Origin: Chrysochromulina tobinii
Lineage: Eukaryota
Assembly: GCA_001275005.1 (NCBI GenBank)
Contig: JWZX01003398.1
Span: forward strand, 1 to 64,000
DNA length: 64,000 nucleotides
Direction of reading: 5' to 3'
This document shows, piece after piece, positions 22,377 through 49,600 of this stretch; within the stretch, counting starts at the first letter, position 1, and every line of letters starts with the position of its first letter. The notes under the pieces were generated by a model. That model made no database searches. It saw nothing but the letters and a program-made list of their open reading frames with translations, and had not been told where the DNA came from. Made by a program: the position numbers and the translations under genes.

Positions 22377-24462
22377 ATGGCGGATAGGTCGGAGCCGACG
22401 AGCCGTACAGCTCCTAAGCAGCTAAAGAAAGCGCAAGATCAGAAGCAGGCGCTCGCATCGCTCTGGCTCGACTCATTGATGATGCCGGCGCAGCAACTCG
22501 CGCAGTGCCTGAGTGTGCACGCGCGGGTGCCGCTGCCAGGGGAGCGTACCGCCGTGCGTCCTGTCGTGCGAGTCCAGCTACGCGGAAGCAACGCCGCCCC
22601 TGCCGAGTTCACCGAGATCCTGCTTGCTGTCATGCACCTCCTCATCTACGACCACGATAAGTACGTACAGAAGGTGCAGTCGCTTCTGATGACCATCACT
22701 TCGATCAAGTCGGCCCAGACGCCCTGCGCTGCCCTGATCCTCCCAATGCTACGCATGCACGAGGACTTCCTTCGCAAGGTCGTCTCGGCTTGCTACTATT
22801 GGGTCGGCTCCAACCGGCAGCCACTCCTCGCGCTCAACATCCTCTCGAGCTTTGTGGTCCCAAGTACCTCTGTCGACCTGCCCGCGGCGCGCCAGACGTG
22901 CGCGCTCATCCGCGGGTGGCCGAAATTCTCGCTGCTCGTGCAGGCGTCGCTGCGGCTCGCTCAGGAGCCCGCTACGGCGCTCGTCCTCGGCCGCTTCTGG
23001 GACGCGGTGTTGGGCACTCCGCCACAGTCGGAGCCCGATAGCGCTGCGCTCGCGGATGCGTTGGGCGACCTTGCCAAATCGAGCGACCTCGAGGCGTCCC
23101 TGGATCTGCTGCTGCTCGGGCTGCAGACGCGAGCGCGCGAAGCTTCGATTATCTCGCGCTTTGGCGGCCTCGCCCCGCTCCTCAGGATCACAAGTGCTCT
23201 GCTCATGGCCGACAAGCTCCTTGCGGCCATCGCCGAGCGGGGCGCTCTCTGGTAGCGCGTGCCCTCGGAGTGCCCTCTGAGTGCCCTCGGAATGACCTCG
23301 GAGTGACCTCAATCTGACCTCGGAGTGACCTCGGAGTGACCTCAATCTGACCTCGGAGTGATCTCGGAGTGACCTCAATCTGACCTCGGAGTGATCTCGG
23401 AGTGACCTCAATCTGACCTCAATCTGACCTCCGGTGGCCATCGCACACTCTCAGGTACTTGGTGCACATGGTGGTGGCGATCATGGACGTGGCGGCCGAG
23501 GCAATGAGTGGTGGGTCGGCCAAGTGCACCTCGATGCACGACCTGTTAGCTGCTATGTCACTGGAGGTCATCGCCGTCTCCGTCACCTCAGCCGGCCTGC
23601 TGCCCCATTTCTTGAACCCGGGGGCCTCAGCAGCCGCGGGTGCGCCACCGGGCATGGAGCCTGCGTCTCTGGAGCGCCCTCTGCGCGTCCGGCTCGAGAA
23701 GCTGGTGGCTATCGCCATAGAGCGGCACGCGCAGCCATACCCGCTGCCGCCGCTCGCGCGCCTCCCTGACGCGGTGCGCCGCCTCTACAGCACCATGGAC
23801 CGATATGGAGGCACCCTGCTCATCGAGATGCTGCAGGCAAATGCGATGGATGAGGCCGGCGTTCGGGCGGTCAACCGCCATCTGCTCGTGCTTCCGGAAC
23901 TCGCGCCGGGAGCTGGCGATGGGCAGGTCCCAGAAAGGGGTGCGAGTCTCCGCTCGCTCTCGTTATCGCGGAGCGCCGTCCTGGGCGGCGCGCCTCGTGC
24001 GCGCGAGCTGCCGAGAGTGGAGGTGCTTCCCGCCGAGTTGACGCGCCATAGCACGTGCTATCCCGTGCTGCCGCCCAGCCAACGCTTCGAGCTGATCAAT
24101 GTCAACGTGGCCCAGAGGCATGCCTACGTACCCACGGTATCCATTGTTGGCAGCGGCAGAGGCGTCGGCGTCGGCGTCAGCGTCGGCGTCGGCGTCGGTG
24201 TCGGCAGCGGCGTCGGCAGCAGTGTGAGCGAGGGCGATGATGGCGAGCGCATCGGTCTAGTGGACGACGGCAATGACGTCGATCGGGACGGCACATTTCC
24301 TCCCGAGACCGAGCCAGATCGAGATCCAGATCGAGATCGAGATCGGGACGGCACACTTCCTCTCGAGCCCGAGCCGGATGGCCCTTGGCGGCCGGCTCCA
24401 TCGAAGGCCAACGGCAGCGGCAACACCGAGTCCATTAAGCTGGAAGGCGCTGACGACACCAT

Positions 24463-24504
<42 letters not shown>

Positions 24505-26631
24505 CCACCACCACAATCGTGGTGCCTCTGGTCAAGGGCGCGACGCGGCGTGGACAAGGGCCCTGCACGAGGCGATCATGAGCTTGCCACCGGCCGCGCC
24601 GGAGATCTTGCAACAGTTACCCTATCATCCGCCTCTCAGCAAGGTTGACCCGAGTGATGACAGCTCGGCTGATGACTTCTTGGGTGAGCGTGACGCTGTT
24701 TGGGTTGAGTGGATGAGGGCAGTGGGCACGGTTGGCGCCTCGACAGAGTTCAAGCCGCGTGGCTGGGTACTGCCTGCACGCTCGGCGTTGGATGCTGCCA
24801 ACAGGACAGCCGACCCAGCTCTTGACAAAACTGTCGACGCCGAGCCTGGGACTGCAAAGCCTACACCTCGCGCAAAGCGCGAGGACGGCGAGGGCAGTGA
24901 GACCAGTTCTCCACGCGGCGACATGGGTACGCTGATGGCCACGGATGACCTGCCGGGCATGCAAGTGCTCACCACGGCGCCCTCTTCCCCTTGTCCCACA
25001 GGCGCGGGTTCTCCTCTTGGCGACGATGCCGGCGGCGAGATGCTTGCGCACGACGGCGGGCTTGTGGGTACGAGAGTGAGCAAGGGCGAGGGCGATCGTC
25101 ACTTGGTGCTGCAGGAGCCAGTGGGAGAAGGCAGCGTCATCGTAGAGTACCACGGCGAGCTTGTCGTCGATTGCGACAGCATGGTACGCGCGCTCTCCAA
25201 ATACCACACCGTGTGGCCACCGCTGCTATACATCCTGCGGCTGGGCACCTCGTCGCTCGCCATGGATATCTCTCGTGTGGCGTCCCATGGCCGACTCGCC
25301 GAGCATTGTTCATGCAACCCTACGTGCGAGCTGCATGCTTGTCGTACTAGAGCGTCCGACGGCAGCTGGGTTCCGCGCCTCGTGCTGCTCGCGGGCCGTC
25401 CGCTTGCCTCCGGGCAGCTCGCTACCGTCGACTACACACGCTTCTCAATCTCGGGACGTGAGAGCCATGTGCATGCCGACTGGATTCTGCAGCTGCGCGC
25501 GACCACGCCGGCCGTACGCCGCTTTCCGCCGCCAACCGAAGCCTCCATCACCACGCTCGTCAACACGCATGCCGAGTTGAGCTCCTCGCTCGCGCGCCGG
25601 CACCACGCGATCGCCTCGGCGTGCAGCAGCGCGCAGGGCGGGCGGGGTGCAGCACCCCGTCAGCTGCCGCCGACGAGGCCGAGGGATCGCTCGAGGACGC
25701 GCCCAGCACGGCGCCCTCGGCATCCAGCACGACGCCCAGCACGGCGCCCAAGCTGCCTATCCAGGAGATGCCACCTGCCGAGCAGCAACGCGTGCTCGTG
25801 GGCATCCTCAAGCGGTTGCGCAAGGAGCCGTGCGACCTCCTCCACTGTCGCTTCCGCAAGAGCGAGCAGGCGAGCGAGAGGCGGCTGACCAAGGAGCTCG
25901 CCAAGGAGGCGGTGGGTCTCGAGGTGTCCAAGGCCGCCGTGGGCGCCGTGCTGGGCGGCGTGGGCGGGCGGGCAGCGAGCGGCGGACGTGGGCGTGGCCG
26001 CAGCGCACGGGGCAGGGGCGGCGGTCCATCCGCGGCGCAGCCGGCAGCATCGCTCGTCGGAGGGAGCTTTGACGAAGTGGACGAGATGACTCATGAGGCC
26101 GAGCGACCTGCATGCAATGAGGGAGGCGATCGCGAGCTGCATGCAATGAGGGAGGTGACTCATGAGGCCGAGCGACCCACCGGTCTCATCAGTACTCTCG
26201 GCTTCATGGAGCGACCCACCGGCCGCGGTCGAGGCTCTCGCGGCGGTGGCCGTGGGCCAATTGGTGGTCGTGGCACAGGTGGTGCCAAGAGGGAACGCGA
26301 CGCGGCGATGGGCGCTGGCAAGGACGGATACGACTGGAGGCAAGGATGGAAGCGCGTGGTCACGCTACCCGTGGGCAATTCGCCCCCCCCAGTGCCGACC
26401 GGTGTCCAGCCTGGCTGGCCTGCTGCCGAGCAGTCTGGATTTGCCCCAATGCAGACCGGCGACATGACGAGCGACGCGCGCGCACCGCAGCAGTTTCTGC
26501 CCATCGCCCCTTGGAACCGTCAAGCGGGCTACAGTGCAAGCGAGGATACCGGTACGGATCCGTCGGCCATGTATGTGGCCGATGACTCCATGGACAGCGA
26601 GCAGCAAGCCGGGGATCTCGCGGTTGACTGA
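22377..26631 (+). CDS. Large multi-exon protein with a divergent SET-like domain; 3' junction near 25620-25670 unresolved
   Basis: ORFs 22182..23255 and 23459..25888 join via intron 23252..23454 (GALW-YLVHM). SET-like IVEYHGELV, GRLAEHCSCNPTCE and RPLASGQLATVDY. ORF 25621..26631 is the probable continuation. Confidence 0.6.
23252..23454 (+). other. 203-nt GT-AG intron largely made of ~11-nt tandem units (GACCTCGGAGT / GACCTCAATCT)
   Basis: CTG|GTAGCG...CTCTCAG|GTAC restores the frame and removes an in-frame TAG. Confidence 0.85.
26108..26176 (-). other. 69-nt intron-shaped insertion antisense to the host ORF
   Basis: 22-bp direct repeat at 26087-26108 and 26156-26177; minus strand reads GT...CCTCCCTCATTGCATGCAG|GT. 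Confidence 0.7.
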
Positions 26632-27115: not shown

Positions 27116-28815
27116 TCACGCCTCCACCGTGGCTGCACTTGGCAGAGCGCTCGCCGTGGCGCGCCAGCCAGCCTTGAGCTGCTCAAAGTGCATCTTTACC
27201 TTCTGCTGCATCCCGTCGTGATAGGCCAAGTTGCGGTTCTCGAGCGGATCCGCCGTCAAATTGTAGAGCTCAAAGCCACAATCTTTCTGTTCCATGGTCC
27301 ATGTCGTCTCGTTCCTGATGCCATCGAAGTCGACCCACGCGGTGAAGCGCACCTCGACGAGGCGCATCGAGTAGCCCATGATCTTGGGCGGGCTCCCCTT
27401 CCGCGGATACTGTGAGTAGCTTGCATTCTTCCATGCGCGCGTCGGGTTTTTGATGAGGGGCATCATGGAAGTGCCTTCAGTGCAGAGCGCCGTCTTCCAC
27501 GGCTTTGCAACCGGGCACACAGGAACCGGCGGGAGACCGGCGGCTTCGATGAGCGTCGCCATGATGTCCACGTGCTCGACGAGGGCATGCGAGACGAGCC
27601 CGCCATCCGTCAGCCCGGGGATACGCAGAAGCACGGGCGCCAGGGTATCCTCCTGAAAATTGGTATGCTTTGCCCAGGCGCCATGGTGCCCCAGCTTCCA
27701 CCCATGATCGCCCCAGAAGATGACGATGGTCGAATTCCAGAGGCCTAGCACCTGATGATGGAAGCAATCAGTGGTCATCATTGGTCATCATTGGTCATCA
27801 GCACACAGCGCTCGATGGTCGAAATCCAGAGGCATAGCACCTTGAGCTCGTTGAGCAGTGCGCCCATGTTGCTATCCGTGAAGCTCAACGCCGCTTGGTA
27901 CGCCCGCACCAGCTCGAGGGCTTTCCAGTCGGGGAGAGTCTCATTGATGGCGCCGGTGAAGCCCAGGGCGGCGACGTCGCTGTAGCTTTGGAGCTCCTCA
28001 GATGCGTAAGCGACCGCAGGCATGTCCCAGGGCGCGTACGGGTTAGGCGCGAGCTGCGTATCCGCTGCGGGGTAAAGGTCGAAGAAGCTCGACGGCGCGA
28101 CAAAGGGCAGATGTGGCTTGCGAAGCCCCACCGCCAAGAAAAACGGCTGTGGGGTCTCGCCGTTAACGAGCGCAGAGCGTTGGGCAGCCGCGAGACGGCG
28201 CATCCACATGAGACCGTGCTCACGGACTTGCGAGTCCTGGCACAGGCCGACCACACTCTCGTTGACAGACCTCCAAGAGAGCCCTGACCCTTGCTCCGAA
28301 GCTTGCAGCTCCGAGATGTCGCCCTCGTGCCATGGCCAGAAATCGGCTTTCGGTTGACACTGGCCGGGTCCGTCGTCCTGGCCCAAGAACCAACCGTCCT
28401 TGCCCGTGGTCGTGCCGTTGAAGTCGGTCCACGAATTCGGGTCATCATAATAGGATGCGTGGCCATCGTGAAAGATCTTGCCCATGCCCACCGTGATGTA
28501 ACCGGCCGCCGTGAAAATACCGGGGATCGTGATGCAGTCGGCGCATCCCACCTCACGCGTGTTATCATACAGGTTGTAGACGTGCGTCGTATCCGGGCGG
28601 CGACCATAGAGGACGCTCGTGCGGCTGGGCGAGCACACAGCTTGCTGCACGTGCGAGTTTGTCAGAAGGATCGCGTCATCCATGAATTTGTCAAGGTTTG
28701 GCGTCATCATGTACTTGTACTTGAGCGTCTGTGGCTCTGGCCAGCGGTTGATCATCGGCCGCAGGTCGTCGTTGGGGATGAAGAGCACGTTCGGCCGCGT
28801 CGCGATCGACATCAT
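27116..28815 (-). CDS. Formylglycine-dependent sulfatase (iduronate-2-sulfatase-like), 2 exons
   Basis: RPNVLFIPNDDLRP, CSPSRTSVLYGR (CxPxR), GMGKIFH, GLRKPHLPF, GDHGW and ELYNL..DPLE. Intron 27752..27840 joins ELK|VLGLWNSTIV. Confidence 0.92.
27752..27840 (-). other. 89-nt intron: exon duplication + TGATGACCA repeats + 3' cassette
   Basis: 27724-27753 and 27813-27842 are 30-bp direct repeats with 2 mismatches; ends CTGATTGCTTCCATCATCAG. Confidence 0.9.
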
Positions 28816-30766: not shown

Positions 30767-32501
30767 ATGATGGGTCACGCTCAGTTGCTGAGCCTGTGGC
30801 TGCTGCCCACCACGGCACTTCATTTTGCCGTGCCCGGCCGAAGCGGCTGCAGCGGCTGCAGCGGCTGTATCATCCGTCGTCGCTCGCCGCCAGCCGCCAT
30901 GGCCGCCTTTGGCGCAGAGACCATCAACGTGGAGCCCGGTGCGAAGTGCTATCTCGTCGGCGCAGTAGTCAAACGCGACCGATACAAGACGCTAGTCAAT
31001 TCGTGGGGTATCGATGACTCCCTTGATGAGCTGCAGCGGCTCTGCGAGACGGCGGGTCTCGAGGTGCTTGGCCGCGACTACCAAACGCTTCAGCACCCGT
31101 CACCTTCGACCTTCATTGGGCAAGGCAAGCTCGACGAGATCGCGGCTTTGGTGAAATCGATGCGCGTGAGCACAGTCATCTTCGACGAGGAGCTCACGCC
31201 GGCCCAGGGCCGTAACATCCAGAACGTGCTCATCGAGGCATGCGGCGAGCAGGTGCAGGTCCTCGATCGGACAATGCTCATCCTCGTCATCTTTTCGCAG
31301 CGCGCGCGCACGAGCGAGGCCAAGCTGCAAGTGGCTGCGGCGCAGATGAAGTACATGCTGCCGCGTCTCAAGTTCTTCCTCACGCAAGGTGCGGGTATGG
31401 ATGCCAAGGGTGGCAGCGGCGGCGGCATGTTCCTCAAGGGCTCCGGTGAGACCCAACTTGAGGAGGATCGCCGACTCTTTCGCAAGCAGCTCGGCAAGAT
31501 TGAGGACGATCTGGCGGCGGTGCAGGCGCAGCGCGACATGCTGCGCGCCAAGCGGCGCGAGGGCGATCGGCGCCCCGTCGTCGCCATCGTTGGGTACACG
31601 AACGCAGGCAAGTCCACGCTGCTCAACACCCTCTGTGGCTCCTCGGAGGTGTATGCGGACGATTTGCTGTTTGCGACGCTCGACCCGACGAGCAGACTAC
31701 ACGCGCTGCCCGGCGGCAAGGAGGTGCTGCTCACGGACACGGTCGGCTTCATCCAGAAGCTGCCCACCAAGCTCGTCGCCGCCTTCCGCGCCACGCTCGA
31801 TGAGCTTGTCGATGCCACCTTGCTCGTGCACGTGGTCGACGCCTCCTCAGAGATCGCCGTACAGCAGGTGCGCTCTGTCCAGGGCATCGTCAAAGAGCTC
31901 GAGGCGAGCGGCAAGCCACAGATCCTCGTGCTCAACAAGGCTGATGCCGTCGGTGCCGACCCGACGCTGGCGGCTCGTGCTGCGTCGACCGACTGGCTCC
32001 ACCTGGACGGCGACGTGACGCCGTGCGCGGTGCTCGCCATCCCGCTGAGTGCCTCTGATGACACTGCGGGTGCTCGCCATCCTGCTGAGTGCCTCTGATG
32101 ACACTGCAGGTGCTCGCCATCCTGCTGAGTGCCTCTGATGACACTGCAGGTGCTCGCCATCCCGCTGAGTGCCTCTGATGACACTGCAGGTGCTCGCCAT
32201 CTCGGCCCGCGATGGACGAAACCTCGATAAGCTCCGGAAGGAGATCGAGGCGGTTCTCGTGCGGATGTCCATCCAGGTCGAGTGCGTTCTCCCCTATGCC
32301 GAGGCCGCGCTCCTCGCCGAGGTCCATAAGACAGGCACCATCAGTACAGAGGAGTACGTGGATAAAGGCACGCGTCTCGTAGCCGCCGTGCCACTCTCAC
32401 TACGGAACCGCCTCGAGAAGGCATGCGTCACCGCCGCGACGCCCTTCAGCGCCGCGGACGTTACGGCCAAGGAACCGGTCAAGAGCCCTTCGGCACCTTG
32501 A
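30767..32501 (+). CDS. hflX: GTPase HflX, probably plastid-targeted; exons 30767-32029 and 32190-32501
   Basis: GETQLEEDRR, G1 GYTNAGKST, LFATLDPT, G3 DTVGFI, G4 NKAD and G5 ISA after splicing; N-terminal signal plus transit peptide. Confidence 0.95.
32030..32189 (+). other. 160-nt intron made of four tandem 40-nt units
   Basis: Unit GTGCTCGCCATCC(C/T)GCTGAGTGCCTCTGATGACACTGC(A/G)G x4; removal restores VTPCA|VLAISARDG. Confidence 0.9.
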
Positions 32502-34590: not shown

Positions 34591-37349
34591 TCAGGACAAA
34601 TTTCGTTGAGGCAGGGCGGCGGTCTTGTGGCCCTCGGAGAGCTTTGGTGGGGGCTTCTTGCCCTCAGCAGCGGCGCCTCCAAACAAGTCGAACGGTACAT
34701 CCCTCTCTTCCTCGTCTGTAGAATTCCCCATCGAATCTGAGTGACAAGCGGCCGCATGATCTTCTGGCGCGGCAACAGCCGGCGCTGCTGCTGGTCCTGC
34801 TGCTGGTCCTGCTGCTGGTCCTCCTGCTGGTCCTGCTGCTTGCCCTGCTGCTGGTCCTGCTGCTGGTCCTGCTGCTGGTCCTGTCGCCGGCACCTCCGCA
34901 GGCTCCTCCTCGCCAAGCGTTGTCCCGGGAAGCTCCCGCTCAAATGTGAGGGCCGTCGCCGCGTCGGCCCCGGGCTCGTGCTCGTAGGCGATGCCGTACT
35001 CATTGGCGCGGGTCTTATCGACCGGGTACAGGTATCGCTGGTACAAGAAGACCAAGAAGACGACGTCATCGCGAAGGCACGCGATCTTATGGTGGAGCGG
35101 CATCGAGACGAGCAGTGCAAACGCGTCGTCGATGAAGGTGTTGAAGGCCTTGTAGGCCATCACTCGCCATGGCATGTGTGCCACGCTCTTGAGCTTATAG
35201 TTGATGAAGAGCTGCGGCGTCATCGAGACGAACCCAAAGAGGTACACCGAGTCGGCCAACGATGAGATGACCCAGCTGTACCAGGTCGTGTGGGGGTAGT
35301 ACACGAGTGCATAGATGGCCCAGCCGCCCACTAGAGGCGCGAGCCCCACACCCAAAGTGCGCGTCGCAATCTCGTCAAAGCGCTCCGTCGCTCCCTCAAG
35401 CCTCACCCGCGCCGCCGCCGCTGCCCTGGTCTGCGCCGCCGCCGACCTCGTCTGCGCCGCCGCCGCCGCCGCCCCTGCCGCCCTCGTCTGCGCCACCGCC
35501 GGCGCCGCCTCATCCACCATGCTCGCCGCTGCCGTACCGGTCCCCGGCATCGCCGAGCGCGGCGCCGTGCCGGGCGGCGACGAATCGTCTTCATCGATAC
35601 GCGCCGCGGTGAGCGCCGTGTTGTGCGCCGTGTTGAGCAGCGCCGTGCCGGGCGGCGACGAATCGTCTTCATCGATACGCGCCGCGGTGAGCGCCGTGGT
35701 ACGCGCCGTGTTGAGCACCGTGTGAGGGAGGGTGGCGGCTGCTGCGCCACCCTCCGCGTCAGCCCCCGTCGCCCCCGTCGCTCGCGTCGGCTGCGTCGGC
35801 GGCCTCGTCGCTGCCTCGCGCGCTGCGGCCGACACCGCGGCGGCCTGCGCCGCGGCGTCCTGCGCCGCGGCGGCCTGCGCCGCGGCGTCCTGCGCCGCGG
35901 CGGCTACCCGTGCCCTAGACGCGCGTAAGATCTGGAGCACACGCACCACCTTCCACAGCTCGACAGCGGTCGAGAAGGTGTACGTAGCCAGCACAATCGA
36001 GTTGAGGTTGTCGGCGTCGAGTAGGTAGAGGTAGATGATGACAGTCTGGGCGGCGGACGAGATCACCGCGCGTGACGAGAGGCCGCTCATCGTCTCCTTT
36101 CCCTTCCAGAAGCCAATGTCACTCCGAAAGGCGAGCACGTCGAAGATCACGTGCAGGATGGAGATGATCTGTGAACCACCCCGCGCAAGGACGGCCAGTC
36201 AGATGCAGTGGCGCCATGGCAGACGCTCGGAAGGCACGGCGCAATCGCAGGTATTCGGAAGGCACTCGAGGGCGTGCGCGCGTCACTCTACCTGCATGCA
36301 ATGAGGGAGGTCATCAATGGCCATCGGAGGTCATCAGAGGTCATCAGCGAGGCGTGCGTATGGCACTCTACCTGCATCACCACGAATCGGTACAGGCGCT
36401 CCTCGGACAAAAGCTCGCGGATCTCGTCGAGCTCGGTGCCGAGACCGAGGCTCGCACCTGATGAGGGAGGCAATCAGAGGTCATCAGAGGTCATCAGAGG
36501 GTCATCAGCATCTCGCCCGAGGCCGAGGCTCGCACCGAGCGACTCAAAGAGTGAGCCAAGCTGCGCCATGATCCGGTGCCGACCGACCGAGATCGGCTTG
36601 AACTTGAGCTTGAGCCGCGGATGCGCCTTCTGCACGTCTGCCGACAATGGCAGCGCGTGCTTGCGCAGCAGCGAGAAGGTGTCCACGTAAAAATGGGGCG
36701 CGTACGTGCGCGCGTGCACGTCCCAGGACTGGCCTATCGGCGTGCCGTCGGGTGCCAAGAACGGCGACGCATACGCCCGTGCGTCCGTCACAAGCCGCAG
36801 CTCGCACATGCGGTACGAGTAGATGAAGTGCGGCACGCGGCCGTGGCGGTCAGCCGGCGCCAACTCGGCGGAGACCGTGCTGCTCGTGCTGGGGGCCTCC
36901 GTCACCGCCGGCTTCTCGTCGCTCGACGCGAACACGTCACCGAACACGTCACGCTCGAGCAGCATGCTGGCCTGCGAGCGCTCGCGCGCTTCGTACATCT
37001 GCACAATGTTGACCCTCGCCGCGGAGAGCACGTCGTCCGAGCCCGTGCGGGAGAGCTCAAACGTGAGCCACAGCTCGCGCATCTCACCTCGGCGCACGCT
37101 CGGTGGCACGGGAGTCGTTATTGCCGCCTCGAGCTCTTCGACCGAGCTCACGTTGGTCACGTTCCACACGGCGGCCCGAATGGCTCCTTCGCCCATGTGC
37201 GCTGTGATATCAACACGAGCTCCCCACGGCAATCTTGGGTGGTAGCAGCCATGCCGGAGCTTGCAGGCCGGAGGATAGAAGAGCACATAGAATTCCTTCG
37301 CGGACATTGCGATCCAGAGCACCATGACTGCTCCCACGTAGGTCCACAT
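34591..37349 (-). CDS. CLPTM1: CLPTM1-family multi-pass membrane protein; introns 36458..36535 and 36169..36371
   Basis: ILHVIFDVLAFRSDIGFWK, GLSSR, MTPQLFINYKLKSVAHMPW, YKAFNTFIDD, HKIACLRDDVVF and YQRYLYPVDKTRANEYG. Confidence 0.92.
36169..36371 (-). other. 203-nt compound intron: 80-nt unit (36292..36371) abutting a 123-nt unit (36169..36291) with no exon between
   Basis: ATGCAG|GTAGAGTG occurs at both the outer donor and the internal junction; only removal of both units gives VVMQ|IISILHV. Confidence 0.85.
36458..36535 (-). other. 78-nt intron: exon duplication + TGATGACCTC repeats + CTGATTGCCTCCCTCATCAG
   Basis: GGTGCGAGCCTCGG(C/T)CTCGG at both junctions; removal restores ESLGASLGLGTELDEIR. 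Confidence 0.9.
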
Positions 37350-38238: not shown

Positions 38239-38734
38239 GCGGAATGATTAACGAAATGATTAGAGAGAGCGCATATCCTGCCATGGGTTGCATGGCCCTT
38301 GTATCATGTAAGCTTACCCGGACACGGCTCGACACGGGCGCAAATCGCGCAACGCGCTCGTGCCTCCCCATCTATCACCTATCACCTATCAGCTGTAGTC
38401 TGTCTGCCCAGTGTGCCACATGTAATCTTTCGAGTACTTTTGGCCCAGAAGGATCAATTGGGTCATGTAAAGTCGAAAACACTTCTGAAAATATTATGGA
38501 ATTAATTGATGATTTTAGTATTCATAACCCTTTTGTCAAGAAGAAGTGAAATGGCGCAAAAATTGTCGTCCGCGGCGTGACCGGTCCGCGTCCCCACACC
38601 GGGAGGCGCGGCACCGACCGCCGGCCCCGCCCGTCAGTATCTTCGGTTACGTGTTAGGCTTCGTCGCTGCGCGGGCTGTGCGCGCAGGTGGCACTGGCCC
38701 ACTGGCAGAACGCCGCAGGTGTGTCTGTGCTCGC

Positions 38735-40425
38735 TCAACGTAGAACAGTGCCAACGCGGCGGTTGGCACTCGACAGGTTGACGAGCGGCTTCCACTCTCG
38801 CGGCAACTGCTGCACGTTCGCTGTCGCAGCCCGCAAGATATTGTCGTCCTGCACGTCGCTCCAATTGCCCATGCCATCAACGGGCCTTCGCGCGACGAGA
38901 ACGCACGAGATGGACAGCCACTGCTTATCCGAGTGGTCGTCCTGCTTCGCACTGAAGTTCGAAATTAGAGCATGGCGGAGGTGCTCATGGTGTATGTCGC
39001 CTACGCCCAAGCCCAGCAGATAGGCGGATGCCATATGCGAATCCCCCACCTTTTTCACATCGGTGATCTCGAACCCGGCCTGTGTTAAGATTTCCTGCGC
39101 CCCCATGCACGTGTACCGGAAGTAGTCGCCCGCCTCGTACGAAAAGTGGAAGCGCTCGAGGAACGGGGCCGACCAGAAGACGAAACCACCCGGACGTACC
39201 TGATGAGGGAGGCAATCAGCATGCACTCAGGAACGGGGCCGGCCAGCAGACGAAACCACCCGGCCGTACCAGCTGGAAGAGGCCACGCGCGGCTGCGAAC
39301 GGGTCCTTCACATGCTCAAAGACCTGTCGACAAGTGGTTGTACATCGCACGCGGTGGGTCGGAAGGGCGGGTGCAGAGGTTGGACGCGGAGTAGGGTGAA
39401 GGACGGAGCCCAAGCAGCACAGCCACGCAGAGGGGATGAGCTCAGCGAAGGTGCTCAGTCTGCACACCTGATTGCACACGACCAAGTCGAAGGATGAAAG
39501 GAAGGGCCCCAAGTCTCGAAATCTCGCCCCAAATCTCGCCCCCAAGTCTCGAGGATGCTCCGAGATGGCCACCAGACTGCACGCAAGTCCGAACACGCAC
39601 GTGAGCAGGGCTGCACAGCTGCACGGCGGCCAGCCCCCCAACGCAGCATACGGCGGCCAACGCAGCGCCACCCCAGGCCGTCCGGCAGCAATGCTCGAGC
39701 GCTGCAAAGGCGGCATGTGCTTCACTCTCGTGAGTGGCGAGCGGAGCGCACTCCGATCCCAAGATGCGCTTTGCCTCGTTGACCCGAACGATGGACTTTT
39801 TAGCGTTCTTCGTCCCGTGGTACGAGAACGTCCAGATCTTGGCTGGGTCGCACGCGGGTACGAGCTTTGCGTGCTTCTCGTCCCAGCTCAAGCACCTCGC
39901 GCCACTCGGCACGATCCTGGCCATGTCCTCAAAGTAGCGGGTGAAGCCCCAACGCCCAATGATGCTCTCGTCGAGCTCCCACGACCCTCGGCGATGGCCC
40001 CATGGCGATATTGGCAGCAGGCCACCAACCCACATGAAGTTGTGCATGGCAATAAACGCAGCTTGCAGCTGCTCGGACCCGATGAACACGGGATGGTTTC
40101 TTATGGTCACGTTCTTTGGCGGCACCCAGGCTCGACCTCTATCATAGTACGGTGCATCAAAAGGAACCGCCTTGTGTGCATCAAGCCATGCCTCCACGTT
40201 CCGATACATTGTCGGCCGCAGATTCAGACAACGTTTCAGGATGGCAATTGCGCGGCGGCCTTGCAGGACTTCAAGCGACTCTGATGTGGATGGCAGCTTT
40301 TGGTCGAGACGACGATGCCCATCCTCAGGCGAGAATAGCATGACGTGCTGACCAAGCAGAAAGCCGACGCAGCCAGATACCACGGCCCACAGCACGTGGG
40401 CCGACACAGGTACCACGATCGCCAT
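38735..40425 (-). CDS. Membrane-anchored class I SAM-methyltransferase-like protein; introns 39200..39269, 39324..39467 and one unresolved near 39510-39750
   Basis: N-terminal TM helix; spliced FDLVVCNQ|VFEHVKDPFAAARGLFQL|VRPGGFVFWSAPF...DYFRYT resembles Methyltransf_11/23-type motifs. Confidence 0.7.
39200..39269 (-). other. 70-nt intron: 41-nt copy of the downstream exon + 29-nt cassette GAGTGCATGCTGATTGCCTCCCTCATCAG
   Basis: 39229-39269 repeats 39159-39199 with 3 mismatches; GT...AG ends; removal restores the frame. Confidence 0.9.
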
Positions 40426-40576
40426 GTTCTCGGGTTACACCGCCCAGGCTGTGCCGTGAACCATCATGGTGTTCAGGCTGTTAATACTCGGACGCCTACT
40501 CCGAATCTATGGTAAGGCACGGGATTTGTCGTCAGTCGTCAGCGCCACTAATTTGTCTCTACTGCATGCAAATGTC

Positions 40577-40691
40577 TTTCCTTATCGGGACGGCAACCTG
40601 AAAACGACCCAAATAAGGCCCTCATTTTTCAGGCGGAGCGCCTCACTCGCTGCCAGCCTGATCGTGCCGATTCCTTCTGGGCTCGGAAGCA
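40577..40691 (+). promoter_or_regulatory. Upstream block conserved between the two giant glyco-enzyme paralogs (other copy 59956..60076)
   Basis: TTTCCTT(A/T)TCGGGA, AAACGACCCAAATAAGG, TTTTCAGG, TCGTGCCGA and TCCTTCTGG in the same order before both ATGs. Confidence 0.55.
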
Positions 40692-43600
40692 ATGGCCAAT
40701 GCAACGCTGTCCTCGACCGCCGTCACGACCACCGCGTCGTATCGACCGTATCGAGCGCGAGCGCGCCAGACTGCCCGTGGGCGAGCTAATGTGTCCGCTT
40801 TGGCCTGCGTCATGGCGTGCATGGTCTCCTCGGCAGCAGGATACTCCGTGACGCCCACGACGGACTCCGTGATCTTCGACACCACGATAGACCTCCGCAA
40901 AAAGGCCTCGCAGGATGAGTACGGACACGATGACAAGGACGTGCCATGCGCCATGTGGGCCAAACAAGGAGAGTGCAAACGCATTCCGGTCTACATGCAC
41001 TCAAATTGCCCTGTGTCGTGCGGCGTATCCGCTCCTGCTCCCAGCTCGAGCCTGAGCTCGACCAGACCGACGTCAGGTGAGTCGAAAGACGGGTGCAGCT
41101 CGTGGTGCGCGGAACACACAGGGGCATTGGAGGTCAAGTGCAGCTTTATCCCGTGCAGCAAGTGTGCAGAGTGCGAGTCGCACAATGACGCTTCATTCAA
41201 TGAGCCTCGGGTCGGTGCTTGGCCAACCTCGGGGCATAAGACAGTCTCTAAAACACCGGCAGCCACGGCCCATGCACCGAGTTCAACCAAGACGGTCTTG
41301 GCCAAACCAACGTCGAAGGACAAGACGGACCTCAAAGCACCTACCACGATAGCCCCCGCACCGACACCAGCACTGGCAACGGTGGTGAAAGCACCCACGC
41401 CGGAAACGGCAACGGTCGTGAAAGCACCCACGCTGGCACCGGCGAAGATGGTCACCAAGCCAACCGTGGGGAACGCGTCAGACTTGCACGCGCCGACCGC
41501 GGTCCAGACGCCGAGCTCCAAGCCAACCGTGGGGAACGCGTCAGACTTGCACGCACCGACCACGGTCCATGCGCCGACCTTGGCCAAGCCAACCGTGGGG
41601 AACGCGTCGGACTTGCACGCGCCGACCTCGGTCTATGCGCCGTCCTTGGCCAAGCCAACCGTGGGGAACGCGTCAGGCTTGCACGCACCTTCAACCACGG
41701 TCTATGCGCCGTCCTTGGCCAAGCCAACCGTGGGGAACGCGTCGGACTTGCACTCACCAACCGCCGTCCATGCGCCGAGCTCCACCAAGCCAGCCTCAGG
41801 CGACAAGGCAGAGCCTTCTGATCTCAACTTGCCGACCTCGGTCGATGCGCCGAGCACTATCACTCCGAAGACAGAGGGATGCACCGACGCGAAGGACATG
41901 CCTTGCGCCGCGTGGGCCCAAAAGGGAGAGTGCCAACGCATTCCAGTCTTCATGCTCTCCATGTGCGCATCGTCTTGCGGCTGCCTCACGCCCGCTGCCG
42001 CTAGGCAGCTACTCATGAATATGGATCTCCTACGGCGTGATCCCGAGACACCGACCACGGTCCAGACGCCGAGCTCCAAGCCAACCGTGGGGAACGCGTC
42101 AGACTTGCACGCTCCGACCACGGTCCATGCGCCGACCTTGGCCAAGCCAACCGTGGGGAACGCGTCAGGCTTGCACGCTCCGACCACGGTCCATGCGCCG
42201 ACCTTGGCCAAGCCAACCGTAGGGAACGAGTCAGGCTTGCACGCACCGACCGCGGTCTACGCGCCGACCTTGGCCATGCCGACCGCGGGACACAAGACAG
42301 ACCTCAACTCTCCGACCAACAAGCAGCGGACGACCGTCGTCATCATGTCCGATCGTTTCGAAGCTGTCGTGGTTGCAATCGGCTCTCTCTTCATGAACAG
42401 CCCAGAGAGCGACATTGACGTCTGGCTCATCGGCGATATGCAGCGAGAAGCAAAAGGCAACGTGTCTCTGCTCCAGCGGCTCAACGCTGCGCTCCAGCCG
42501 CAAGCGCCGGAGCAGACGATCAGCGTGATGGGCATCGACGAGGCAACAGCACTGCTCGAGGAGGATGGCGTGACTCCGGTTTGGAAGTGGCCACAGTTTG
42601 GCTCGCTGGGCGCTGACCAGGATCAGGACCATAAGCCAGAGACCGTGCTGCGTCCAGAGCCGTGGGACTATGACAACATGCACCACGACCCGTTCAACTT
42701 GATTCGCTTCTACTTGCCGTACCTCGGGCCGTTCAGAGAGCTCGATTCCCTCTTCTTATGTGACGATGACATCGTCGTTCAGAAGTCCATTTCCACGCTC
42801 GAGGTACCGATGGGCGATGGCCCCATCATCGCCGCGACATGCAACGGATGGCTGTGGGCCGAGGACTGCATGCGCAACGAGCCGTATTACAATGGAAAGG
42901 GCTGGCTCGACTACCCGGCCACGTATCTGGGCAAGGACAAGGCACACGGATATAGTGGGTGCACGAAGAAGGCATCGGAGAGCGGAAACCGCATTTGCCA
43001 GAAGGACGAGTTTGCGGAGACGGTAATGCGCTGGAGCAAGAAGTTCAACGGCAAAGAGCTCATCCCCGCCGACCAGCCGCGCTGGAACTTTGGTTTGTCG
43101 CGCGTCAACTTGACCGAGTGGAGAAAACAGAACATGACGCACGTCTTCGATAGCTACATGCGCGCCAACTATGAAGCCAAGCTTATCCCCGAGACGTCCC
43201 TCGCTTTTGGCCTCGGGATCCCGTTCTTCGCATTTGCGGACAAGATTAAGTGCTGGAACGACGTTGTGGGCGACCCGGCCTTCGTGGACGGCCTCGGGTA
43301 CATCTCGAAGGCCGACTTGAGCTTGAACAACCTGAACGCGTCGGAAGTGCTTGGACAGGCAAACGTGCTTCACTGGTCTGGCCGCAACAAGCCGTTTGAC
43401 CCACAGTCTGAGATGGAGCTTGAGCTCTACAAGCCGTTCGATGACGTACAGGAATACTATGTGGGCAGGTCGCAGAAGTTGTACGCCAAGGGAAGTGAGC
43501 TGAAGACGCAGCAGATTGTAGCGCCGGAGAGTGGCCTCCACGCCATCGTCAGGCAGACGCCCGATGCGTCGAAGCAGAGCACCCGCTCGCTCTTGTATGC

Positions 43601-46600
43601 AGACCCTTATTCGGGGGCCGAATGGTTCTTGGAGCTGCTCGATGAGACGCCTGACGTCTGTGCATCGGGCTCGACCGGCAATCCGACGGTTGCCTTCGCA
43701 GGAGAGAGCTTCATCCCGCCCCACTTTGAGGCCGTCCAGAACGCCATCCCAGTCTGCGCTCAGAAGCGCGCCTGCCTCTGGAGCTTCATTGCACAAAACG
43801 TGCCCCGGTACGTGGAACAGCGTCACAGCTGGTGCCCGCATACCAGAAGAGGTGGAGGGGAGGTTGGTACCTTGGATTTGTTTGACACTACACTGGATTT
43901 GTTCGAGATCCATGACATGCACGGTCAGATGCTTTGCTCTTGGGCCGATCGCTTGCAGACGATGTACCCCAATCGCACCAGCTACTCTGATCTGGGCGGG
44001 ATCCAGACGCTCTGGAACCTCTACGAGCACAATGTCTTCTCGATGGCGACGGATCTCGTCCCGTGCACCCAGGCGTGCGGGTTCAAACCCGTCCGCATGC
44101 TCAAGTTCTTGCGCGCTTGGGCCCAGCCGATGATGAACGGAAGCGAGCCCGCTTATTCGTGGCGCGACAACGGCGATGCGCCCAAAATATTTGTGGGCGA
44201 CTTTGCGGGCGAGCACTGTCACGGCGAGGCCCTGCCGGGAGGAGGCTGCGACGGCAGCGAGTCCTACTTGCCAACGATCAACTGGGACGCATACAAGATT
44301 GTCGAGCTCATCCGCTGGAACCTTCTCGATCGTTGCCTCGCACAGACCGAATTCGCCATCGGGATCAACGAAGACCCGACTTTCACCACTCAGTCTTCCA
44401 ACGTCGAGACGGGCGACGTCGACTTGGACGACTTGCTGCGCTGCATGAGATACTCGAGCGCACAGCGTGACGCGGACCTTCTGCGACTCAATGTCTTTTC
44501 TGGCGAGCGCCTCGCCGATTGGATGACGCTCCCCTATGAGATGTGTTCCATGCCGAGCCACATCCAGGGATGCGTCGACGCCGCGGCAGCCCACGTCAAC
44601 GAGCAAGCCTTCAGGATTGTCGAGAGACCCCACAGTGTGGCAACCGCGACTGAGCAGGCCCACATGACTTCAACCTCTGCTCTTGTCGAAGATTTGAAGC
44701 GCCGACGCTGGCGACGATCGAAGGGAAACCAGCTGGAAACTCGCCGGCGCGTGAGCGTGCAAGGTGACGGGGGCGAGACACAGCCCGACTCGGTACGTTC
44801 CATGCCGACGATCGACGCTGATTGGTTGTCAAAATACCAAGAAGATAGTCTCCACTCAGCCAGAGTTCCGGAGCGCATCTTCGCGCAAGAGCACGCGGAG
44901 CGAACTGACGGTGACCATTTCGTCACAGCACTGCAGAGATACATAAGAGCGCCGCCGCCGCCGCCTATCAAACGAGTTGCGTCTTCGAGGCAATGTTGCT
45001 TGGAGGGTCTATCCACTTTTCAGAAATGTCTTCTGAAGGGCATTCCTGTTTGCTGCAAACCTTGGGATCAAGCGTGCCTCAGGATGCAAGCCGGCGGCGG
45101 TATCGATCCAGTTACTGGCAAGTATGTCCCTGGCCCGAACTTTGACCCCAAATATGACCCTACGAAAGTCGGCCCTCCACCTGCAGGCTGGAGAGCCCCC
45201 CCGGCAGGCAAAACCTATTCTTATGACGACGACGACGAGAATGGTGGTGGAAGAAAGAAATGTAAGAAAGGTCAGCCCTGTAAGGCCGGAGAAGACGGCG
45301 ACACCTATTCTTACGGCGATGAAGCAGGTGGCGGCGGTGGAAAGAAAAAGTGCAGAGACAAGAAAGGAAAAATCATTCCCTGTCCCGCCGCCGGAGAAGG
45401 AGAAGAAGGCGACACCTATTCTTACGGCGATGAAGCAGGTGGTGGCGGAAAGAAAAAGTGCAGAGACAAGAAAGGAAAAATCATTCCCTGTCCCGCCGCC
45501 GGAGAAGGAGAAGAAGGCGACACCTATTCCTACGACGAGAACGGTGGCGGAAAGAAAAAGTGCAAAGACAAGAAAGGAAAAATCATTCCTTGTCCCGCCG
45601 CCGGCGCCGGAGAAGAAGGCGACACCTATACCTACGACGAGAATGGAAACCGGAAAAAGTGCATACCCAAACCAGGCAAGCCCTGTCCCGTTGGAGAAGG
45701 CGGAGCGGGCGAAGAAGGCGACGTGAATGGAGGACGGAAAAAGCCTGTCGCTGGCGGCGGTGAAGGCGAAGAAGGTGATGAAGACGAGAATGGTGCGAGG
45801 CGACGATCGCCTCCGCCATCAGGATCGCCAGGATCAGAGGGATCTCCGGATGATGGTTCACGCGCTCCCCGCGCTCCGAGCGGGGCTGGATACGGTTTCC
45901 ACGGATTCACTCGCCGTACCATTCGCCGCGGCACCGTGCTCGAGCTGGCCGCTGCCGATGTAGAACATGGTCGCACGTCGCGCTCCTCTCGATGGCTGGG
46001 TGTTGCTAACGCCGAACAGCTTTCCGCCGGTCTGATCCACGCTGGGTTCGCTACCTTTATCCAGCCGATCTACTGCTTCGCGTGGGAGGCGCATGCCGAC
46101 GGCAACGAGATTGCCAAGTACCTCGCAAAGCTTCCTGAGCAGTACATTGTTCCCGGCTCGAGCGCGTCGACGGCATTCAACGCACGTGTCTTCAAAGACG
46201 AGTTCGACGAAGAAGTCGACGCTCGGACCCACGCGCTCATCGCGTTTGGTCAGGTCGATGACGCCACGTGGGTGCACAAAGTGCGCGCTGCTACGAGCCG
46301 ACCTGTGGTGCTCCTGGGCCTCATGCGCGACGTCCTCGCTCATCGCGTCCAGCTCTTCTACAGCGACGATGCACGTCGCCACATGGCCGAAAGGTCGTCG
46401 TCGACGTTCGTGAAAGCGATGCTGCATTCGTGGATGCAGAGCGGCGAGTACCCACGCGATGCTCAGCTTGAGTACATGTACGGCTTGAATGCCACTCTTC
46501 GCGAGCTCCCCATCGACGACGTCTGGAAAGCTCGCAACGCATCCGCTGTTGCGTCCGGTGTAGATGTTGATAACATCGCCCCCGCTGCCTCAGTGTATGT

Positions 46601-49600
46601 GGGTCCCGTTGGAGACGCGCAGAATGTACGCCGGAGCTTGTGCGTGTTTGCGCACTCGACCTCGCTGCCGATTCCGTGGCTGCAGTATGAGACCGCCGTG
46701 GATAGCGCGAGCAGCACCGTTCCGTCAAAGCTCCTCGCGCACGTCGACGAGGACATCGCCGCCGCCATGCTTGCCATGGAGCCGAGAGAGTTTTACTACG
46801 TCGCTCGCGCTCTGGATACCTTTGAAGCCTTTGCGGAGGAGTATGGGTGCTTGGAGGAGCCAACAGAGGCGGCCCTGCTAACACCAAAATACGGTGCTGG
46901 ACCGCTCACATACAGGAGCAGCACTATTGTCAAAGATTCAATCGGCGGCGCGACCTCGGTCAACACGTTTTCGGGCGATGACATCTCAGACACGGTTGAG
47001 AACCCCACGCCCACGGCGATGGCGCTCCCAAGGAAACCATTCACCGGCAGCTCGCCTTCAGACTATCCACTCTACTACTTCCACCACGTGCCGAAGACTG
47101 GCGGGACTACGCTCAGCGACTATCTCATGCAGCTCCCTCGACAGTACAAGGTGCCCGGGTCGGAGCGCTCGGGCGCATTCAACGTATCCATCTTCAGGAG
47201 GGCAGAAGATGAGGTGGCCATGCGACGAAACTGTCTCATCGCATTCAGCCACATGCAGGTGCGCTCGTTTATGGACGTCATTCGTCGGTCCAAACTAGCA
47301 GACAGGAAGATCGAAGTCATCTTCATGATGCGTGATATCCTCCCTCATCGCGTGTCGTTCTTCCACGAGATGATCGGGCCAGAGGCGCACGGCCACGACC
47401 AAGCTGACCTCGATGCCGGAAAGACTGTCGCACGCCCGTATGTGGACTTCGCAACGTGGGCTGCGAAGGACATCGACCCTGAGATGGCGCAAGTGGCTTG
47501 GTTGACAAACCATTCACATGAGACGGAGGACTTTGCGCCAGTTGCCACAGCTGAGTGCATAAAGGACCAAAACTGCCGCGACCCGAAGATGGACAGCTTC
47601 CAGCTCAGACCCCTTTACAAATTGAACTTTGCCTGGGCGAATGTCCCCATCCAGGAGGTTCATGAGCAGCTTCATGCTGAGCATCCTCTCGAATCGTGCG
47701 CACCCTTTGCAGCTACCGACGGGCAAGAGAACGAGGTGCTCTTCCGTCACTGTCCAAATGCTACTGCAGACGTGGGTCTCGCTCTCATCGGGCATCTGAG
47801 CCTTATGCGCGAGACGCTCTGCCTGATCGACCACATGCTGGGCGTGCCCGTACCGTGGAACGGAGTCGCCCACCAGGGAATGAACTGGCGCTTCAAGAAG
47901 CTCCGGCCGATGGATGCCGAGAGCAGCTTCGACAGCTCCTCGGCCAACGAGCTTCTGTCACGCGAATCTCGTGAGCTCATCTTCAACTCGATGACCAAAT
48001 CCAAGCTCATGGAGCAGGCGGCCATCTACCATTGCGGCCCGCCGCCGCCGCCACCCGCCGCAGAGCCGCCTTCGACGATCCTACCACCATGGGATGCGGC
48101 CGCTGAATTACCACGCGAGAGACTCTACTTGGCCGACGAGATGTCGAAGCTAGCTGGAGGAACGGTGGAACCTCCCTGGCGGCACCGGACCTCATTTTCG
48201 AAGTGCGGGGAGGAGAGAATGGTCACCAGCGAAGAATCCGCAGCTGAGGTCGGTCTCCTCTCGACGTGCGATCCAGAGTCGTGCCTTGTCATGTCGTCTG
48301 GCTGCGGCTCACGTCCCGAGTGCCAGGGCTGCGGCTCGCTGTGCCATGGAAGCTCCTCATCGGACGCCAGTGCGTGGTCCTTGGATGGGTTGGCCACAGG
48401 GCTCTCAGTGTATGGCACGGACCCCATCGGCACCGTGAAGACCGAGAACCGCTCGCTTTGGCGCAATGTTAACCTCATTGTCAGGTGGTCGGACTTCGAG
48501 CCGAAACCAGACGAATTCGACTGGGCAGCATTCGACTCGCTGCTGCTCGACGTTACGAAGAGGAACAAACCGTTCGCAGTGGGGATCACCTTTCTCTCGG
48601 GTCCGAACTACTACCCTCAATGGCTCTTTGAGTCGCCGTTCGAGGTGACCAAGTACGCTGAGGTCTGCGGACACCGGGAATGGAACGTGAAAGACGCCGA
48701 TGCGTGTAATGAAACCGCGTTCGCGGTGCCCAATTTCCACGATGTCACCTACATGGCTCGCTACAAGCGCGCGCACAAGGCGCTCGCGTCGAAGCTCAGT
48801 GATATGCGCGTCATCAACAGCCAGCTCAGGCTTCTGTTTTTGCAAGCGTCCATTGGAAGCGGCATTCAGAACGCGCCAGTCTACTTCCACCCAAATCAAA
48901 CCGAAGCGGACTACGTCTGGACGGATCCTCAGGGTGTTTCGACGCCCGCGGATGCGAGCTGGGATCAGTGCGGCACCTGCGGTTTCGATGCGTTCGCTCC
49001 GCCTCGCAATGTGTCCTTGGATCAGTTCTGGTGCCCGAGCGGTGCTACAAGCACGGGTATCATCGTTTCTCGGCGGCCGGCCTTCGAGCAGTACGCCCAG
49101 AGCCTGACCGCATTCCTTTACAATGACGTCTACGCGACGCACATCGAGGACGCCGGGATGCGGCTGATGGTGACGAGCGACTATCCGACGACATGGGTGA
49201 ACTTCGCAAATGGAATGAATAGTGCCGGCCAGACTGAGAAGCGGATGCAAGATGTGCAGCTGTTTACCAATGAGTGGCTCGATGCGAATGCCCCCGGCTC
49301 TTGGCTGATGCGCAGCAAAGAGGGCGAGGGCGCCGGGGTGTCAGGTGAACGCACGCGCGCCGCCCACTCAATCCTTAACGTCTTCAGGGTGACGGAGGAT
49401 GGACCCGTGCGCGCCCGTGCCGACCTGGACAAGTTCTGGTGCTGGACGGGCGAGGAGGGGAGCCGCGGACAGCTGGGCGCGGAGCCGGTCGCGAAAAGCT
49501 GCCTGATGCAGAACTGGCACCTGTATGCTGTAGCCATGTGGGCGCTCACAACTCGCATCGACTACTGGAACATTCCGCTCACAGCTGCAAAGCAGCAGCT

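What the first reader, a model, noticed from the sequence alone, without database searches (positions are those of the whole stretch)
39159..39270. Minimal version of the module: 41 nt of duplicated exon plus only 29 nt of foreign DNA
The 70-nt intron is GTACGGCCGGGTGGTTTCGTCTGCTGGCCGGCCCCGTTCCT (copy of the next exon, 3 mismatches) plus GAGTGCATGCTGATTGCCTCCCTCATCAG. It defines the smallest cassette that turns a tandem duplication into an intron, seemingly too short for a TIR transposon. The few mismatches suggest a young but not brand-new event.
Basis: partly seen in the sequence, partly recalled or inferred. Interest (0 to 1): 0.75.

Follow-up and report, generated by a model that had tools for sequence, protein, structure and literature searches.

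The report
Introns built from other introns' ends
In a freshwater haptophyte alga, this 70-base spliced intron consists of a copy of the start of the next exon plus a short end-piece shared with many other introns, and it likely arose when the end of an existing intron was pasted into a gene, a route to new introns that standard screens would miss.

Summary
Confirmed. Window 39269-39200 (minus) is a 70-nt GT-AG intron in a methyltransferase-like gene of a Chrysochromulina tobinii/parva-type alga, skipped in 2 of 3 RNA runs. Its first 41 nt copy the next exon (3 mismatches). The last 29 nt are not unique DNA but a high-copy branch-point/acceptor tail. In metagenomes, 67 of 127 tail sites carry such an exon copy (control 0.4%): copies 10-55 nt, tails 22-254 nt, fixed 3' end, variable 5' junction enriched in microhomology, no inverted repeats. 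One pair shows the source: an intron in a Piwi-like gene contains the 3' part of a gamma-tubulin-complex gene's intron, including that gene's exon-derived bases. A relative at 85% protein identity reads through the site; a sister lineage has both forms. So these introns likely propagate by copying intron ends into donor-like GT sites. RNA-templated copying is my best guess; DNA break repair is the main rival. It is near, not at, the minimum size, and older than 'young'. This scan noted the family earlier in this genome (e1-2577349). A published introner screen lists zero families for C. tobinii.

The parts
39200..39269 (-). 70-nt GT-AG intron, phase 0 (the finding)
39229..39269 (-). 41-nt copy of the next exon start; supplies the GT donor; 3 mismatches, two of them shown to be derived in this copy
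39200..39228 (-). 29-nt tail (31 nt with the shared CT): two branch-point-like CTGAG/CTGAT motifs, short pyrimidine run, CAG acceptor; high-copy family end
   Evidence: (summed depth 11084 against about 37 in DNA run X12); branch-point reading is from general knowledge
39159..39199 (-). start of exon 4, the duplicated target
38735..39199 (-). exon 4 of the host gene, to the stop codon
39270..39323 (-). exon 3 (54 nt), methyltransferase-like motif
39324..39467 (-). intron 2, 144 nt, ordinary (no tail, no exon copy)
39468..39576 (-). exon 2
39577..39751 (-). intron 1, 175 nt, ordinary; retained in X14 and X16 contigs; X15 contigs branch exactly at both ends
   Evidence: splicing inferred from the branch points and from frame restoration
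39752..40434 (-). exon 1 open frame; the four exons give a 436-codon frame without internal stop
36458..36535 (-). sister module, 78 nt (19-nt copy plus tail), in a CLPTM1 gene; skipped in RNA
36292..36371 (-). sister module, 80 nt, sitting on the donor of an older intron; removed with it as one 203-nt skip (36169-36371)
27752..27840 (-). sister module, 89 nt (28-nt copy plus tail), in a sulfatase gene; skipped in 3 of 4 RNA runs
26108..26176 (-). sister module, 69 nt; no spliced joint seen
32030..32189 (+). four head-to-tail 40-nt units (12-nt exon start plus a different tail); removal restores a GTPase frame; RNA not tested

Best explanation
This is a spliced intron whose donor is a 41-nt copy of the next exon and whose acceptor is a short tail shared with many introns of the same alga, and it likely arose when the 3' end of another tail-bearing intron was copied, probably from RNA, into a donor-like GT in the exon. 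Shown: splicing, anatomy, family-wide fixed 3' end with variable 5' end, variable target duplication, 5' microhomology, one donor-recipient pair between unrelated genes. Inferred steps: (1) the target is nicked at the GT, and synthesis primes on the AG|GT junction of a donor intron's transcript; (2) copying runs from the AG toward the donor's 5' end and stops after about 20-250 nt, here 29-31; (3) the new strand rejoins the target 10-55 nt downstream at a few shared bases, which duplicates the exon start; (4) selection keeps products that start with a donor-like GT/GC and total about 60 nt or more, because splicing then restores the mRNA exactly; (5) afterwards the intronic copy decays, the 10-nt tail repeats slip, and the direct repeats allow unit amplification, re-copying or precise loss. 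Every new intron is itself a template, so no separate element with a fixed 5' end is needed. The enzyme is not identified.
For: Splicing in X14 and X16 and frame restoration. Copy present at 67 of 127 sites vs 0.44% control. Copies 10-55 nt, median 24; tails 22-254 nt; 52 of 67 units are 63-97 nt; copy length and tail length anticorrelate, rho -0.58, n=61. Microhomology at the 5' junction: mean 2.9 nt in 43 junctions vs 1.66 in 1167 simulated blunt joins, p=7e-4. Donor pair: the L094 intron (Piwi-like gene) matches the 3' 61 nt of the L051 intron (gamma-tubulin complex gene), 16 nt into L051's exon-derived copy, of which 7 are shared with L094's own exon. Targets look like donors: 148 of 165 GT exon starts are GT[AG] vs 49% of 535 coding GTs; 54 of 72 tail ends not selected by the scan pattern are followed by GT or GC vs 17% background. 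50 of 52 multi-tail loci are co-oriented. Read-through at the site in P0007 (85% identity; contig up to 4667 nt, longer than the 1.9-kb RNA cover). No upstream local copy of the tail in the gene.
Against: Only 1 clear donor pair among 7656 ordered pairs of 88 units; the other 18 hits all trace to one boundary error in L022, and a k-mer search gave no excess over controls (32 vs 23 and 24; 46 vs 42). Nothing here shows an RNA intermediate: no poly(A), no significant fold (z -0.54 to +0.58), no reverse transcriptase among 17 long window frames scanned. Sense orientation and GT targets could come from selection alone; my coding-strand classifier gave 98 sense and 26 antisense of 124, with 25 of 28 right in validation, so antisense copies are not excluded. 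23 of 66 junctions were dropped from the microhomology test because their first 8 tail bases occur in no other unit. Empty sites are read from predicted proteins, not DNA, and assemblies can collapse such units (L055 vs L109 differ by one 65-nt unit with 0 mismatches).
Confidence: 0.5

Rival explanations
1. DNA-templated break repair. A broken exon end switches at microhomology to a genomic tail-bearing intron, copies through its AG, and returns to the target at the GT, duplicating the exon start. Selection alone explains the fixed 3' end, the orientation and the length floor.
For: Microhomology; the donor pair fits equally well; different tails stacked at one GT (L051, L094, L042); a shared 1-nt indel in both copies at 36371 and 36291 that differs between the window and L060 shows local re-copying; a few duplications start on non-GT/GC bases (L075, L056, L115, L017, L009, L041). 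Break-repair capture with short direct repeats is a published model (PMC3020277, passages).
Against: All 6 duplication-type introns in the window use family tails, none a unique intron end, although ordinary introns are present. Neutral antisense or intergenic copies should be common, yet 50 of 52 loci are co-oriented and 54 of 72 unselected ends are followed by GT/GC.
Confidence: 0.27
2. One-ended rolling-circle (HUH) transposition, as for Replitron-1: a transposase recognises the fixed tail end, inserts in one orientation at a dinucleotide target, carries a variable stretch of donor flank and makes variable target duplications.
For: Replitron-1 shows orientation-specific insertion, variable-length target duplications and fuzzy ends carrying parental flank; one Replitron locus was recovered from C. 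tobinii (PMC10288648, passages and section 9 part 1). The donor pair carries donor flank. The tail end has a short imperfect inverted repeat.
Against: No terminal direct repeats, no second fixed end, no significant hairpin; at least three different 3' ends share the architecture or the copy number; the author calls Replitron-1's signature non-canonical.
Confidence: 0.1
3. An older intron at this position was rebuilt locally: tandem duplication of its acceptor plus exon start (mirage or potato type), then loss of the old 5' part.
For: Head-to-tail units exist (32030-32189; 10 of 67 units directly follow another tail end) and vary in number between assemblies. Known from amphioxus (PMC3087553) and potato (PMC4974935), passages read. 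The sister lineage also has a tail here.
Against: No remnant of an upstream tail or intron at 39270; P0007 reads through; the L051-to-L094 transfer is between unrelated genes; local duplication does not explain one tail at very many sites.
Confidence: 0.08
4. A classical non-autonomous DNA transposon (MITE-type introner) with decayed ends, or an assembly or reverse-transcription artefact.
For: Donor from the target duplication and acceptor from the element is the layout of Symbiodinium and Polarella classes 4/5 and 6/8/10.
Against: No inverted termini; duplication length varies from 10 to 55 nt instead of a fixed 4 or 8; 5' ends vary; DNA holds the intron and RNA skips it at GT-AG; the C. tobinii gene model is spliced at the same place (P0015).
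Confidence: 0.05

Closest known systems
Introners that carry the 3' splice site and take the 5' site from the target duplication (Symbiodinium; Polarella glacialis classes 4/5 and 6/8/10; bioRxiv 10.1101/2020.10.14.339549, part 1 of 4 read; PMC9860276, passages)
   Same: Donor from the duplicated target, acceptor from the insert, mRNA unchanged, many copies in genes.
   Different: Those have fixed 4- or 8-nt duplications and, in Symbiodinium, inverted ends; here 10-55 nt duplications, no inverted ends, only the 3' end is shared. Published Chrysochromulina sp. introners carry the 5' site with a 4-bp duplication, the opposite layout.
Non-LTR retrotransposition (target-primed reverse transcription; features recalled, not from a call) and the 5% non-LTR introners of PMC12130899 (section 6 read)
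   Same: Fixed 3' end, variable 5' truncation, variable target duplication, 5' microhomology.
   Different: No poly(A) or simple-repeat tail after the element end, no partner element found, templates appear to be host introns, and the 3' end is the splice acceptor itself.
Linear group II intron retrohoming by partial reverse splicing (PMC3280974, passages) and proposed spliceosomal intron transposition (PMC10996645, passages)
   Same: Precise intron 3' junction with error-prone, truncated, microhomology-rich 5' junction; spliceosomes can join an intron 3' end to a 5' splice site.
   Different: The group II junctions show exon deletions, and the word 'duplicat' does not occur in that paper's text; here the target is duplicated. 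No ribozyme or maturase; Rfam gave no match.
Intron gain by tandem duplication: Rogers model, ATP2A1, potato RdRp (PMC4974935, passages) and amphioxus mirages (PMC3087553, passages)
   Same: Exon-start copy inside the intron; arrays of acceptor-plus-exon-start units; unstable copy number.
   Different: There both splice sites are local. Here the acceptor comes from elsewhere in the genome and recurs at many genes.
Replitron-1 of Chlamydomonas (PMC10288648, section 9 part 1)
   Same: Variable target duplications, one fuzzy end carrying donor flank, orientation-specific insertion.
   Different: 0.9-3.6 kb elements with terminal direct repeats; not reported there as intron makers.

Membership tests
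Spliceosomal GT-AG intron | Removed from RNA at GT...AG, restoring the frame | tested here: met
Introner (Gozashti et al. working definition) | Many similar introns in unrelated genes | tested here: met
Introner (Gozashti et al. working definition) | [quoted passage not shown] | tested here: not met
   5' parts are site-specific exon copies; criterion read
Introner (Gozashti et al. working definition) | Recent gain shown by an empty orthologous site | tested here: inconclusive
   Read-through proteins P0007, P0006, P0025, P0034; DNA not seen, collapse or loss possible
TIR DNA transposon / MITE introner | Terminal inverted repeats | tested here: not met
TIR DNA transposon / MITE introner | Fixed short target duplication | tested here: not met
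   10-55 nt
Non-LTR retroelement (LINE/SINE) | Fixed 3' end, 5' truncation, variable target duplication | tested here: met
Non-LTR retroelement (LINE/SINE) | Poly(A) or simple-repeat 3' tail | tested here: not met
   element end abuts the exon GT directly
Non-LTR retroelement (LINE/SINE) | Partner reverse transcriptase or full-length master element | not testable with these tools
   no whole genome held; none in 17 window frames
Replitron / HUH transposon | Terminal direct repeats and hairpin | tested here: not met
Replitron / HUH transposon | Mobilisation by an HUH transposase | not testable with these tools
   needs genome and biochemistry
Local tandem-duplication intron (Rogers / mirage) | Acceptor source lies adjacent in the same gene | tested here: not met
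   met only for secondary arrays such as 32030-32189

The most novel reading that the evidence does not exclude
Introns in this alga reproduce without any transposon: the splicing machinery joins the AG end of an existing intron to a donor-like GT on a transcribed gene (a half reverse-splicing step), the RNA is copied part-way and rejoined downstream, and each product is a new, precisely removable and reversible intron that can seed others. This would be genome-scale natural evidence for spliceosome-guided intron transposition, hidden from all homology screens because half of each intron is local exon sequence.
Probability: 0.2. Interest if true: 0.92.

Novelty: new variant of a known kind. 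Interest (0 to 1): 0.74.

Why it matters
How new spliceosomal introns arise is a long-standing question, and most mass gains are credited to transposons with shared ends. Here a culturable alga with public genomes appears to gain introns by copying only the 3' ends of its own introns, taking the donor from a long target duplication. Each copy carries its own clock (intron copy against exon), sometimes a donor barcode (another gene's exon bases), and possible presence/absence variation, so donor-recipient trees, rates and the template can be tested directly. The introner screen requires similarity at both ends and lists 0 families for C. tobinii, so this class may be overlooked elsewhere too.

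Tried and rejected
No whole genome for the window and the metagenome records are not held, so no genome-wide count, antisense survey or search for a master element. Tail pattern: 0 hits in viral contigs and 0 in prokaryote genomes; a 14-nt pattern gave 120 viral loci, none with tail-like context, taken as chance. Rfam: 0 matches in 38500-40500. Folding of 6 tails or units: none beyond shuffles. A first k-mer donor search failed on a faulty filter; the repaired one showed no excess over controls apart from L051/L094. The coding-strand classifier was too weak to exclude antisense copies. I first read P0006 as proof of an empty site in a sister lineage; one search showed that lineage holds both forms (7 tail, 3 read-through, 5 uninformative of 15 listed), so I downgraded it. 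The apparent frameshift upstream is explained by the often-retained intron 1. Summed contig depth over the tail is no copy number and is used only as 'high copy'. The module at 26108-26176 gave no spliced joint; one X17 contig covers it unspliced but with only 15 nt on one side. Paper searches that found no description of this family: (tail sequence, 0 papers); supplements of PMC9860276 (file cut when stored) and PMC12130899 (files 13 and 14 not searched) held no match to the tail motif; bioRxiv supplements were not seen.

Full report
Observation. The finding is accurate. On the minus strand, 39269-39200 is a 70-nt GT...AG segment whose first 41 nt repeat the start of the next exon (39199-39159) with 3 mismatches; 29 nt remain. 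RNA contigs skip exactly 70 nt in run X14, and the length of record 26 in X16 requires the same skip; X15 listed no bridging record; DNA run X12 holds the segment. The joint lies before the first mismatch and keeps the exon copy, as GT-AG splicing predicts. With two ordinary upstream introns (144 and 175 nt) removed as well, four exons give a 436-codon frame; retention of the 70 nt gives a stop. The region matches methyltransferase families weakly, and the relative P0007 passes their cut-offs. The protein cluster contains Chrysochromulina tobinii KOO20971.1, spliced at the same place, and a C. parva model, which places the host in that freshwater haptophyte group.

The 'foreign' DNA. It is a high-copy intron end. 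Summed contig depth over it is about 11,000 against about 37 beside it (qualitative only). Its 31-nt form matches 6 other tail ends exactly. The window holds five more modules: 36458-36535, 36292-36371, 27752-27840, 26108-26176 and a four-unit array at 32030-32189. Of the six, four are skipped in RNA, one gave no joint and one was not tested. Of 169 matches, 127 were unique with enough flank; 67 of these have an upstream GT-anchored copy of the next exon start at score 10 or more, against 0.44% of swapped controls.

Family anatomy. Among 197 terminal tail ends, 79 had a confident copy and 67 of those were last units. Copies are 10-55 nt (median 24; shorter ones fall under the threshold), tails 22-254 nt, and 52 of 67 units total 63-97 nt. 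Copy and tail lengths anticorrelate (rho -0.58, n=61; -0.53 for all 67). The finding has the joint third shortest tail and the sixth longest copy; 10 units are shorter overall. The simplest reading is a floor on intron length near 60 nt, with shorter units surviving in arrays or inside longer introns (inference). The 3' end is fixed; the 5' end varies and shows microhomology with the target, mean 2.9 nt in 43 of 66 junctions that could be scored, against 1.66 in simulated blunt joins, p=7e-4. Targets look like donors: 148 of 165 GT starts are GT[AG] against 49% of coding GTs, and 54 of 72 ends not chosen by the pattern are followed by GT or GC against 17%. 50 of 52 multi-tail loci are co-oriented. 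There are no inverted termini, no Rfam match and no notable fold.

Where tails come from. The intron at L094 (Piwi-like gene, E 1.8e-5, under the Pfam cut-off) matches the last 61 nt of the intron at L051 (gamma-tubulin complex gene, E 2e-50). The match runs 16 nt into L051's own exon-derived copy; 7 of those bases are also in L094's exon, the other 9 are not. The flanks are unrelated. So one intron of this kind served, directly or through a descendant, as template for another, joined at microhomology. This is 1 clear case in 7656 ordered pairs of 88 units, from a small sample of the genome; a k-mer search found no other excess over controls. Different tails are stacked at one GT in several loci, and one window module sits on the donor of an older intron.

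Gain, age and turnover. P0007 (85% identical over exon 4, on contigs up to 4667 nt) reads through both intron 2 and this site. It and 63 more distant homologues never have Cys or Pro at the two non-synonymous differences, so those changes arose in the intronic copy. Against a very young age: in a sister lineage (about 93%), 7 of 15 listed proteins begin in a tail variant at the same site and 3 read through, on contigs up to 27 kb. That is polymorphism, precise loss through the direct repeats, or assembly collapse; L055 and L109 show that unit number can differ between otherwise identical assemblies. In the window's lineage 8 of 15 listed proteins show the tail, 1 is a spliced model and 6 are uninformative. 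Between the window and L060 (99.4% identical) both copies of one module differ by the same 1-nt indel, which indicates local re-copying, so mismatch counts are an imperfect clock.

Mechanism. A fixed 3' end, truncated 5' end, variable target duplication and 5' microhomology are the pattern of target-primed copying from RNA (recalled knowledge of non-LTR elements). Sense orientation, donor-like targets and restriction to family tails add weight. I put this at 0.5. DNA-templated break repair plus selection explains most of the same facts (0.27). A Replitron-like HUH route (0.10), local rebuilding of an older intron (0.08) and a decayed MITE or artefact (0.05) fit less well. No enzyme was identified, and no RNA intermediate was shown.

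Comparison with print. It works like the introners of Symbiodinium and Polarella that take the donor from the target duplication (bioRxiv 10.1101/2020.10.14.339549, part 1 of 4; PMC9860276, passages; review PMC11282704, part 2 of 5), but fails their features: fixed short duplication, inverted ends, similarity at both ends. The screen of PMC9860276 requires similarity at both boundaries and filters low-complexity families (passages), and a supplement of PMC12130899 lists 0 families for C. tobinii (section 6 read). Arrays resemble amphioxus mirages (PMC3087553, passages) and the potato case (PMC4974935, passages), where the acceptor is local. Partial reverse splicing of linear group II introns gives a precise 3' and an error-prone 5' junction but deletions, not duplications (PMC3280974, passages); spliceosomes can join an intron 3' end to a 5' splice site (PMC10996645, passages). 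Break-repair capture is described in PMC3020277 (passages). Ten searches found no description of this family; subscription papers and some supplements were not visible.

Verdict. Real, spliced, and part of a large family that published introner screens would not detect. The locus itself is an ordinary near-minimal member. New variant of a known kind; interest 0.74.

Noticed in passing
window 24927-25001 (+): 75-nt intron spliced in 3 of 4 RNA runs; tail-like repeats at its 5' end and a second high-copy 3' end, which other RNA contigs show behind a different GT-starting stretch.
   Followed up: partly
window 36292-36371 (-) and L060: Both copies of the donor start share a 1-nt indel within each strain but differ between strains: short-tract conversion between the repeats.
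   Followed up: partly
window 32030-32189 (+): Four 40-nt units in an HflX-type GTPase gene; the first unit's acceptor is mutated; removal of 160 nt restores the frame.
   Followed up: partly
window 39577-39751 (-): Intron 1 of the host gene is retained in most RNA contigs, which would truncate the protein before the methyltransferase motif.
   Followed up: partly
window 39498-39552 (-): 33-nt in-frame duplication with GGCGAGATTT-like repeats in exon 2, absent from the relative P0007.
   Followed up: no
L056, L115: Duplications that start 24 nt before a GT, which would leave an in-frame 8-codon repeat in the mRNA.
   Followed up: no
L002 near 855 (+), L115: A tail contains a copy of its own downstream exon about 50 nt away, and a 15-nt piece of it recurs in the L115 tail.
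   Followed up: no
window 40662-52019 (+) and 60074-64000 (+): Intronless 3786-codon frame with ShK and glycosyltransferase 8 domains and internal repeats, with a paralogue 8 kb downstream.
   Followed up: no
window 1-1560: About 190-nt tandem repeat array, at least 8 units.
   Followed up: no
window 23238-23453 (+): 11-nt tandem repeat array after a GT, probably another repeat-filled intron type.
   Followed up: no
window 12437-21673 (-): 3079-codon open frame without a Pfam match.
   Followed up: no
P0008, P0037: A relative at 67% identity appears to have a different intron a few codons upstream of this site.
   Followed up: no
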